Part shown: positions 10,543-10,836 of the stretch, in pieces | Position numbering within the stretch: position 1 is the first letter of the stretch | How the letters are laid out: each line of letters opens with the position of its first letter | DNA from: a virus | Taxonomy: Duplodnaviria; Heunggongvirae; Uroviricota; Caudoviricetes | Length of the DNA: 14,389 bases | Virus record (IMG/VR): IMGVR_UViG_3300015157_000027 | Location: 1 to 14,389 of that record | Reading direction: 5' to 3' (one strand) | Position numbers and translations under genes: made by a program | Notes under the pieces: generated by a model | Database searches by the model: none | What the model was told of the DNA's origin: nothing | The model's input: the letters and a program-made list of their open reading frames with translations, nothing else

Positions 10543-10836
10543 AATTCACCCGTATAGAAACCATTTTCATGACGGTATGAGAGTATACCTTTAAGGTAAT
10601 ACCGTCACCTGTACCGCCAAAAAATATGGTGCAGAGTGAATAGAAATGAATACATAAAAACAAAAACCCTCTGTAAAAACAGAGGGTTGAATTAGTATCT
10701 GAATAGGAATGACTTGCTATGAGTTAGCTGTTAATCATTCCCACTCAATTATTTACGACATGCATAACCAATTGACTGATAACAACTTTCTGCCACATGA
10801 TTTTCACTGTACCGTTTTATATACCGTCACCGGAAA
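10543..10836. other. Non-coding region between int and the lysis cassette: candidate attP with repeated ATACCGTCACC motifs and an operator-like palindrome
   Basis: ATACCGTCACC at 10599-10609 and 10821-10831; inverted copy GACGGTAT at 10571-10578; ATACC-TTTAA-GGTAA at 10585-10599. No tRNA-like 3' end recognised. Confidence 0.4.
10651..10688 (-). terminator. Intrinsic terminator closing the minus-strand late/lysis operon
   Basis: Stem AACCCTCTG / CAGAGGGTT (10665-10673 / 10680-10688), 6-nt loop; on the minus strand followed by UUUGUUUUUAUG. Confidence 0.6.

What the first reader, a model, noticed from the sequence alone, without database searches (positions are those of the whole stretch)
10543..10836. 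Candidate attP with arm-type repeats and an operator-like site next to the int start
The 294-bp gap between int and Rz holds direct repeats ATACCGTCACC (10599-10609, 10821-10831), an inverted copy (10571-10578) and a further CACTGTACCG / CACCTGTACCG pair, the pattern expected for integrase arm sites. An ATACC-TTTAA-GGTAA palindrome at 10585-10599 resembles the repressor operator and lies in the likely int promoter region. Two more GATACCGTCACG copies lie inside int (10266-10278, 10364-10375), but both encode the same R-D-G-I peptide, so those may be coding coincidence.
Basis: partly seen in the sequence, partly recalled or inferred. Interest (0 to 1): 0.5.

Follow-up and report, generated by a model that had tools for sequence, protein, structure and literature searches.

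The report
Phage attachment site at host guaA
The gap between the integrase and Rz genes is the attachment site that phiV10/epsilon15-type phages use to insert at the end of the host guaA gene; its core is already published, so the finding is correct but ordinary.

Summary
The window is a phiV10/epsilon15-like podophage (Uetakevirus). Comparing a lysogen's attL and attR, an empty E. coli K-12 site and the window gives a 17-bp common core, AATCATTCCCACTCAAT, at window 10733-10749. The same core is published for phiV10, epsilon15 and vB_EcoP_ZX5. The epsilon15 RefSeq record already marks the 10-mer ATACCGTCAC four times as integrase-binding sites.

What I add:
- The repeats flank the core on both sides and are almost invariant in 70 distinct P' arms and 26 P arms, while neighbouring spacers vary.
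- The two copies inside int are probably not coding coincidence. They are two of only six invariant runs of 10 nt or more among eight int genes that share 74-81% identity with the window's.
- The palindrome matches the genus-wide operator motif ATTACC-N5-GGTAAT at 10 of 12 positions. Its half-sites are conserved around a variable centre, and it overlaps a conserved TATAnT -10-like hexamer.

Repressor and Int binding are inferred, not shown.

The parts
9292..10542 (-). int: a P4-family tyrosine integrase of 416 aa with a GTG start
   Evidence: Pfam finds Arm-DNA-bind_3 (residues 2-87), Phage_int_M and Phage_integrase. The gene is 98.6% identical in nucleotides to phiV10 int.
10230..10247 (.). 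Intragenic arm-like pair: inverted ATACCGACA (10230-10238, minus strand) abutting direct GTACCGCAA (10239-10247)
   Evidence: It overlaps an invariant 14-nt run (10231-10244) among 8 divergent int genes.
10274..10283 (+). Intragenic arm-type copy ATACCGTCAC (encodes RDGI)
   Evidence: It lies in an invariant 11-nt run across ints that share 74-81% identity with the window's. The epsilon15 record annotates the homologous site as 'integrase' protein_bind.
10364..10373 (+). Intragenic arm-type copy ATACCGTCAC (encodes RDGI)
   Evidence: It lies in an invariant 12-nt run. In epsilon15 the amino acid changes (R to C) but the 10-mer is kept. Epsilon15 annotates it as an integrase site.
10569..10578 (-). 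P-arm arm-type site in inverted orientation (ATACCGTCAT on the minus strand)
   Evidence: It is conserved, with single one-sided changes in some lineages.
10582..10587 (-). Putative -10 hexamer of an int promoter (TATACT on the minus strand)
   Evidence: This is an inference. Relatives have TATACT, TATAAT or TATATT, so only position 5 varies. The consensus scan found no full sigma-70 promoter here, because the -35 is poor.
10584..10600 (.). Operator-like dyad TATACC-TTTAA-GGTAAT
   Evidence: It matches ATTACC-N5-GGTAAT at 10 of 12 positions. The window holds 8 such sites against 0.41 expected. The half-sites are invariant while the centre takes 5 different forms across lineages. The same 2-mismatch site sits at the same place in epsilon15, Tyrion and PAT1.
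10599..10608 (+). P-arm arm-type site ATACCGTCAC
   Evidence: It is near-invariant in 26 P arms and is annotated as an integrase site in epsilon15.
10611..10619 (+). P-arm tandem degenerate arm-type site GTACCGCCA, 12 bp after the previous one
   Evidence: Relatives carry the full ATACCGTCA at this position.
10637..10649 (+). Conserved repeat TGAATAGAAATGA, the first of two; binder unknown
   Evidence: families D3 and D6. The string AGAGTGAATAG is invariant in 26 P arms.
10655..10688 (-). Rho-independent terminator acting on minus-strand transcripts (stem 10665-10688 plus T tract)
   Evidence: phiV10 and epsilon15 annotate it. Its stem is identical to the native terminator beside guaA in attB.
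10700..10712 (+). Second TGAATAGGAATGA repeat, a degenerate inverted copy of the core
   Evidence: pair I3. It forms a 15-bp stem with the core in minus-strand RNA.
10733..10749 (.). att core AATCATTCCCACTCAAT, equal to the guaA codons I-E-W-E plus stop on the minus strand
   Evidence: It is the only stretch shared by attP, attB (MG1655), attL and attR (SW070919). The published core is attgagtgggaatgatt (PMC9782041). Most of the listed junctions in E. coli genomes end at 10749 and overlap guaA.
10750..10757 (+). TATTTACG abutting the core; a possible core-type (C') contact
   Evidence: Mean entropy is 0.07 bits per column in 70 distinct P' arms, followed by a hypervariable 6 bp. The function is inferred.
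10769..10781 (-). IHF-consensus site TATCAGTCAATTG (WATCARNNNNTTR)
   Evidence: It is the only exact consensus match in 10500-10900. It lies in a conserved 22-bp block. Epsilon15 annotates IHF sites in this arm.
10809..10817 (+). P'-arm degenerate arm-type site GTACCGTTT
   Evidence: TACCGT is present in 70 of 70 distinct P' arms.
10821..10830 (+). P'-arm arm-type site ATACCGTCAC
   Evidence: It is exact in 68 of 70 distinct P' arms and is annotated as an integrase site in epsilon15.
7797..8045 (+). AlpA-family protein, the likely excisionase (directionality factor)
   Evidence: Pfam Phage_AlpA. The homologue is annotated 'excisionase and transcriptional regulator' in epsilon15.
4627..5211 (+). 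HTH repressor, the presumed binder of the ATTACC-N5-GGTAAT sites
   Evidence: Pfam HTH_3. Operator-like sites cluster in its flanking intergenic regions: 4510, 4541, 4558, 5270 and 5332.

Best explanation
The 294-bp int-Rz gap is the attP of a phiV10/epsilon15-type temperate podophage.

Recombination takes place within a 17-bp core (10733-10749) that is identical to the 3' end of host guaA. The phage-borne half restores the last guaA codons and stop. It also supplies a copy of the terminator found next to guaA in E. coli, which stops guaA read-through into int.

The P4-family integrase has a separate N-terminal arm-binding domain. I infer that this domain binds RTACCGYCA(C) arm-type sites. Three lie in the P arm (one inverted, two tandem direct) and two tandem direct sites lie in the P' arm. 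An IHF site between the core and the P' sites would bend the DNA so that Int bridges arm and core, as in the lambda-type intasome.

The P-arm sites bracket a weak int promoter, so Int probably limits its own synthesis. A dyad between them resembles the phage repressor's operator and probably lets the repressor shut off int in lysogens. Two to four further copies within the first 310 nt of int look selected at the DNA level and may extend the Int-binding region.

What is shown: core position and identity, repeat enrichment, conservation and domain content. What is inferred: Int, IHF and repressor binding, the promoter, and autoregulation.

My confidence by part is about 0.97 that this is attP with this core, about 0.8 that the repeats are Int arm sites, about 0.5 that the dyad is a working repressor operator, and about 0.5 that the intragenic copies are functional.
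For: -: the window is 96-97% identical to phiV10-like phages and about 81% identical to epsilon15, Tyrion and PAT1.
- 569 of 5426 complete E. coli genomes hold a match. Most of the listed matches run to 10749 and overlap guaA.
- aligning attP, attB, attL and attR gives the 17-bp core and shows the phage and host terminator stems are identical.
- PMC9782041 reports the same core for phiV10 and epsilon15, and confirmed it for ZX5 by PCR and sequencing of attB, attL and attR.
- the epsilon15 RefSeq record annotates ATACCGTCAC four times as integrase sites, together with IHF sites and the terminator.
- 6 motif hits against 0.61 expected.
- Pfam finds Arm-DNA-bind_3, Phage_int_M and Phage_integrase in Int, and AlpA in the candidate Xis.
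- in 70 distinct P' arms the arm-site block has 0.07 bits per column, against 0.88 in the adjacent spacer. The exact 10-mer is present in 68 of 70.
- across the divergent P-arm types the sites are kept, and the second tandem site is a full ATACCGTCA in relatives.
- the intragenic copies sit in 3 of the only 6 invariant runs of 10 nt or more. A control R-D-G at codons 22-24 varies at synonymous positions.
- the operator motif is enriched and dispersed, and the int-proximal site is conserved in four phages.
- there is an exact IHF consensus at 10769-10781.
Against: - No binding or recombination data exist for this particular phage, and none for the arm sites of any relative. The epsilon15 'integrase' features appear to be pattern-based.
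- The consensus scan finds no complete sigma-70 promoter upstream of int, so the promoter and the autoregulation step are weakly based.
- The dyad has two mismatches in one half-site, and Kropinski's epsilon15 annotation did not list it as a repressor site.
- The intragenic sites lie 360-500 bp from the core, further than typical arm sites.
- All relatives share the same repressor-operator family, so operator specificity could not be tested by comparison.
Confidence: 0.85

Rival explanations
1. The site is attP, but the palindrome is not a repressor operator. On this view its conservation comes from the overlapping -10-like hexamer, from the adjoining arm site (GGTA-ATACCGTCA), or from another protein such as the AlpA-type excisionase.
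For: - The left half is TATACC rather than ATTACC in every lineage, and it coincides with the TATAnT hexamer.
- The right half shares its last bases with the arm site.
- The epsilon15 annotators did not call it a repressor site.
- All the phages compared use the same operator family, so conservation cannot discriminate.
Against: - TACC and GGTA are invariant while the 5-bp centre takes five different forms, which is the pattern of a dyad protein site.
- A 10-of-12 match is within the range of sites in the immunity region itself.
- A chance match of this quality inside a 294-bp gap has a probability of about 0.008 (0.41 expected per 14.4 kb).
- In L029 an 11-bp insertion separates the dyad from the arm site, yet the dyad stays intact.
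Confidence: 0.35
2. The inverted ATACCGTCA pair and the palindrome form an RNA stem-loop in the int leader that acts as an RNase III processing site, as the epsilon15 record labels the homologous stretch. On this view they are not protein-binding DNA sites.
For: - Epsilon15 carries a protein_bind 'RNaseIII' feature over the homologous 39 nt.
- The minus-strand RNA folds into a hairpin with a 9-bp outer stem and a 4-bp inner stem, at -21.6 kcal/mol.
Against: - The fold is not unusual: z = -1.69, and 13 of 200 shuffles fold as well.
- There are five kinds of one-sided change in the outer stem among lineages. Two give G.U, three break a pair, and none is compensated.
- If the -10 is at 10582-10587, half of the hairpin would not be transcribed from that promoter.
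- The same 10-mer recurs in direct orientation in the P' arm and inside int, which a hairpin does not explain.
- No Rfam family matches.
Confidence: 0.1
3. The copies inside int are coding coincidence. Only the intergenic repeats would then matter.
For: - Both encode R-D-G-I using common E. coli codons.
- They lie 360-450 bp from the core.
- Other runs of three or more unchanged codons also exist in int.
- The third exact copy, at 10021-10030, is clearly not conserved.
Against: - Only 1.3% of 10-nt windows in int are invariant among 8 divergent genes, yet both copies fall in such windows (joint chance about 2e-4). A third invariant run holds an arm-like pair.
- The R-D-G at codons 22-24 varies at synonymous sites.
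- Epsilon15 changes the arginine to cysteine but keeps the 10-mer.
Confidence: 0.3
4. The repeats are chance similarities and the gap is only an intergenic spacer holding a terminator.
For: None beyond the short length of the motifs.
Against: The motif is enriched, the core has been mapped, and the sites are conserved in about 70 distinct relatives.
Confidence: 0.01

Closest known systems
attP of phages phiV10, epsilon15 and vB_EcoP_ZX5 (Uetakevirus), integrating at the 3' end of guaA
   Same: The 17-bp core is identical and sits at the same position about 190 bp upstream of int. The int-attP-Rz order is the same, the integrase is about 98% identical to that of phiV10, and the ATACCGTCAC copies occupy the same positions as the epsilon15 'integrase' features.
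   Different: The window differs from phiV10 in the variable spacer of the P' arm and in the Rz allele, and otherwise only by point changes. Nothing differs in kind.
Bacteriophage lambda attP (heterobivalent Int, arm-type P and P' sites, IHF and Xis)
   Same: A core is flanked by arm-type repeats unrelated to the core sequence. Int has a separate arm-binding domain. An IHF consensus lies between the core and the P' sites. A small directionality factor is encoded nearby.
   Different: The integrase belongs to a different family (P4-type, Arm-DNA-bind_3). attP lies upstream of int and overlaps its leader, not downstream of it. The target is the 3' end of a protein-coding gene. Arm-like copies extend into the int coding sequence.
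Satellite phage P4 attP and int region
   Same: The integrase is of the same family. From my own knowledge of the P4 literature (not retrieved here), repeated Int sites lie next to the int start and overlap its promoter, and Int and the AlpA-like Vis protein negatively regulate int.
   Different: P4 targets a tRNA-Leu gene. The repeat sequence is different. I know of no main-repressor operator reported within P4 attP.
Genomic island GIsul2
   Same: It integrates at the same guaA 3' end through an integrase, and an alpA gene lies beside it. Its 8-bp crossover site GAGTGGGA lies inside this core (PMC9376610).
   Different: It is a non-phage island with a shorter identity segment. Its arms were not compared here.

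Membership tests
Lambda-type (heterobivalent tyrosine integrase) attP | A core sequence identical between attP and attB, with the crossover inside it | tested here: met
   The 17-bp identity at 10733-10749 is shared by attP, attB, attL and attR. The same core is published. The exact cleavage positions were not determined.
Lambda-type (heterobivalent tyrosine integrase) attP | An adjacent tyrosine integrase with a separate arm-type DNA-binding domain | tested here: met
   Arm-DNA-bind_3 (E = 3.9e-20) plus a catalytic Phage_integrase domain.
Lambda-type (heterobivalent tyrosine integrase) attP | Repeated arm-type sites on both sides of the core, unrelated to the core sequence and conserved in relatives | tested here: met
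   Sites lie at 10569, 10599 and 10611 in the P arm and at 10809 and 10821 in the P' arm. They are near-invariant while the spacers vary.
Lambda-type (heterobivalent tyrosine integrase) attP | Physical binding of Int to the arm and core sites | not testable with these tools
   This needs EMSA or footprinting. None was found in the literature searched.
Lambda-type (heterobivalent tyrosine integrase) attP | Sites for an accessory DNA-bending protein (IHF) within the arms | tested here: met
   An exact WATCARNNNNTTR lies at 10769-10781 in a conserved block. This is at sequence level only, and no consensus site was found in the P arm.
Lambda-type (heterobivalent tyrosine integrase) attP | A recombination directionality factor encoded by the element | tested here: met
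   An AlpA-family ORF lies at 7797-8045. Its binding sites in attP were not identified.
P4-family integrase module | Integration into the 3' end of a tRNA gene, the usual target | tested here: not met
   There is no tRNA in the window and the target is the 3' end of guaA. This is a known variation, shared with GIsul2 and the epsilon15 group.
Uetakevirus repressor operator (ATTACC-N5-GGTAAT) | A 17-bp dyad matching the consensus, placed over a promoter | tested here: inconclusive
   The match is 10 of 12, within the range of the immunity-region sites. It overlaps a conserved -10-like hexamer, but no full promoter is predicted. Binding is untested.
RNase III-processed leader hairpin | A stable stem-loop maintained by compensatory changes | tested here: not met
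   z = -1.69. There are no compensatory changes, and three lineage changes break pairs.

The most novel reading that the evidence does not exclude
The Int-binding region of this attP may not be confined to the intergenic gap. It may extend about 310 nt into the int coding sequence through DNA-level-selected arm-type sites. The phage's main repressor may also bind a conserved operator wedged between two arm sites. Immunity, int transcription and possibly intasome assembly at attR would then be physically coupled on one roughly 600-bp stretch.
Probability: 0.3. Interest if true: 0.4.

Novelty: already known. Interest (0 to 1): 0.2.

Why it matters
The result places the integration module of this phage exactly. 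It confirms that lysogeny leaves guaA intact, because the phage restores both the coding end and the terminator. It also gives a defined attP, Int and attB set that could serve as a guaA-targeting integration tool in Enterobacteriaceae. The comparative data yield testable candidates for the Int arm sites, an IHF site and a repressor operator at the int promoter, none of which has been examined experimentally in this genus. None of this changes current understanding of site-specific recombination.

Tried and rejected
- tRNA target: ARAGORN found no tRNA in the window, so this is not a tRNA-type P4 site.
- Known RNA families: the Rfam scan of 10300-11000 gave only sub-threshold noise.
- Sigma-70 scan: no int promoter met the consensus thresholds. 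The -10 proposal therefore rests only on the conserved TATAnT.
- Leader hairpin (RNase III) idea: rejected as the main explanation.
- Discriminating the operator by comparison with heteroimmune relatives: this failed, because epsilon15, Tyrion and PAT1 all use the same ATTACC-N5-GGTAAT motif.
- The original epsilon15 paper (PMC2698709) is not held in the library, so the basis of its 'integrase' site annotation could not be read.
- The SPC32H repressor-operator paper was not found either.
- The exact minus-strand copy at 10021-10030 was considered as a further site and rejected, because it is not conserved.
- Core-type Int sites (C and C') could not be assigned from sequence.

Full report
**What the window is.** The integrase carries Pfam Arm-DNA-bind_3 (residues 2-87), Phage_int_M and Phage_integrase domains. 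An AlpA-family ORF (7797-8045) and an HTH repressor (4627-5211) are also present.

**Checking the observation.** The two intragenic 12-mers are really at 10273-10284 and 10363-10374. ATACCGTCAC with at most one mismatch occurs 6 times in the window against 0.61 expected, and none of 200 shuffles reaches 6. All copies lie within 10021-10830.

**Locating the core.** A 601-bp query across the gap matches 569 of 5426 complete E. coli genomes. Most of the listed matches run from the int side to window 10749 and overlap the annotated guaA gene. I compared four sequences:
- the int-side junction of the prophage in strain SW070919;
- the Rz-side junction of the same prophage;
- the empty site in K-12 MG1655;
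- the window.

The only stretch common to all four is AATCATTCCCACTCAAT, at window 10733-10749. On the minus strand it reads I-E-W-E-stop, the end of guaA. The phage therefore replaces, and exactly restores, the last codons of guaA.

The same 17-mer (attgagtgggaatgatt) is reported as the attP core of phiV10 and epsilon15. It was confirmed for vB_EcoP_ZX5 by PCR and sequencing of attB, attL and attR (PMC9782041). The island GIsul2 uses GAGTGGGA, which lies inside this core, at the same guaA end (PMC9376610).

**The repeats as arm-type sites.** The epsilon15 RefSeq record already annotates four 10-bp 'integrase' protein_bind features. I read them as ATACCGTCAC at exactly the homologous positions: two inside int, one in the P arm and one in the P' arm. 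The record also annotates IHF sites and the terminator.

To test it rather than repeat it, I scanned IMG/VR for the core. I extracted 70 distinct P' arms, which align without gaps, and 26 distinct P arms that include several clearly divergent types.

In the P' arm:

| Block | Mean entropy (bits per column) |
|---|---|
| 10809-10833, RTACCGTTTTATATACCGTCACCGG | 0.07 |
| 10786-10808, the spacer before it | 0.88 |
| 10758-10763 | 1.28 |

The exact 10-mer is present in 68 of 70 arms, and TACCGT of the upstream degenerate copy in 70 of 70.

In the P arm the direct site at 10599 is almost invariant. The next site, 12 bp on, is GTACCGCCA in the window but a full ATACCGTCA in the diverged lineages.

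An exact IHF consensus (TATCAGTCAATTG, 10769-10781, minus strand) lies in a conserved block between the core and the P' sites. TATTTACG, which abuts the core, is also nearly invariant.

This layout is that of a lambda-type attP: a core, arm sites on both sides at roughly one-turn spacing, an IHF site, and an Int with an arm-binding domain.

**The copies inside int.** Eight int genes share 74-81% nucleotide identity with the window's. Only 22.6% of codons for invariant degenerate amino acids are identical across six of these lineages. Across all eight genes only 16 of 1242 ten-nucleotide windows are invariant, and these form six runs of 10 nt or more. Two of those runs are the two ATACCGTCAC copies. 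A third run (10231-10244) holds an inverted ATACCGAC abutting a direct GTACCG.

Two controls point the same way. The R-D-G at codons 22-24 varies at synonymous positions. Epsilon15 changes the arginine of one RDGI to cysteine while keeping the 10-mer. The minus-strand copy at 10021-10030 is not conserved. Whether they serve recombination or int regulation is unknown.

**The operator-like palindrome.** TACC-N5-GGTA occurs 12 times in the window against 2.8 expected. The 17-mer ATTACC-N5-GGTAAT with at most two mismatches occurs 8 times against 0.41 expected. Further TACC-N5-GGTA sites flank the repressor gene, and one of the eight 17-mer matches is at 10584-10600. This is the motif annotated as 'repressor' in epsilon15.

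In epsilon15, Tyrion and PAT1 the motif is dispersed over 16-22 sites, and each genome has the same two-mismatch variant, ATTACC-N5-GGTATA, next to int. Across the P-arm lineages the TATACC and GGTA halves never change, while the 5-bp centre takes five forms. That is what a dyad protein site looks like.

The deviant half overlaps a minus-strand hexamer that reads TATACT, TATAAT or TATATT in different lineages. This is a plausible -10 element about 40 nt upstream of the GTG start. However, no full sigma-70 promoter is predicted. I rate a working repressor operator at about one in two.

**The hairpin alternative.** The epsilon15 record labels the stretch holding the inverted repeat pair an RNase III site. 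The minus-strand RNA fold is unremarkable (z = -1.69). Lineage changes in the stem are all one-sided: two give wobble pairs, three break pairs, and none is compensated. No Rfam family matches. I keep this reading as a minor rival.

**Other features of the P arm.** The terminator (10665-10688, acting on minus-strand transcripts) has the same 10-bp stem as the native terminator beside guaA in attB. After integration guaA therefore acquires the phage copy and the lysis operon acquires the host copy, so both transcripts end the same way in either state. The terminator also insulates int from guaBA read-through.

The core pairs with a degenerate inverted copy (10700-10712) to give a 15-bp RNA stem on the minus strand. 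Together with the terminator this folds at -37.2 kcal/mol, with z = -6.0. A second direct copy of the repeat (10637-10649) contains an 11-mer that is invariant in all the P arms. What binds these repeats is unknown.

**Verdict.** The finding is correct and well supported, but it is the known attP of the phiV10/epsilon15 group. What I add is comparative support for the arm sites, evidence that the intragenic copies are selected, and evidence that a conserved operator-like dyad sits over the likely int promoter. All protein-DNA interactions remain inferred.

Noticed in passing
window 10655-10688 versus L003 (MG1655) around 2905-2935: The phage terminator stem (AACCCTCTGT/ACAGAGGGTT) is identical to the native terminator between yfgI and guaA in attB; only the loop differs. 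Integration therefore swaps equivalent terminators between guaA and the phage lysis operon.
   Followed up: partly
window 10698-10749 and 10637-10649: The att core pairs with a degenerate inverted copy, TGAATAGGAATGA, to give a 15-bp stem in minus-strand RNA. Every difference is a G-to-A change on the plus strand, which reads as G.U in that RNA. With the terminator the fold has z = -6.0. A second direct copy upstream contains AGAGTGAATAG, which is invariant in 26 P arms. Epsilon15 labels the stem 'RNaseIII'. The real function is unknown; it could be an RDF site, a core-type Int site or an RNA element.
   Followed up: partly
window 4-20, 2163-2241, 4171-4187, 4510-4572, 5268-5346: A dispersed set of ATTACC-N5-GGTAAT dyads (8 against 0.41 expected) lies largely in apparent intergenic gaps. 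The same holds genome-wide in epsilon15, Tyrion and PAT1 (16-22 sites each). This suggests the repressor controls many promoters, not just the immunity region.
   Followed up: partly
L128 (E. coli FDAARGOS_1301 chromosome, NZ_CP070111.1 4872205-4879653): An uninterrupted int-attP-Rz junction sits in a chromosome that has two further matching places. The likely explanation is a tandem double lysogen, which regenerates attP between the two copies. This prophage carries an endosialidase tailspike.
   Followed up: no
window 10834-10848; alignment A1 columns 315-366: Similarity to phiV10, epsilon15 and the SPN1S group switches right at the Rz stop codon. Two alternative Rz alleles follow: GTGCCACGATTTTTGC... 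and GTACCATGAAAAATGCC.... The end of the P' arm is therefore a mosaic recombination boundary.
   Followed up: no
NZ_CP079771.1 and NZ_CP079768.1 (41,027-bp records in duck E. coli strains HL15 and SF10): A relative with 88% identity and an intact attP is deposited as a separate 41-kb replicon. It is probably the excised circular phage genome, not a plasmid.
   Followed up: no
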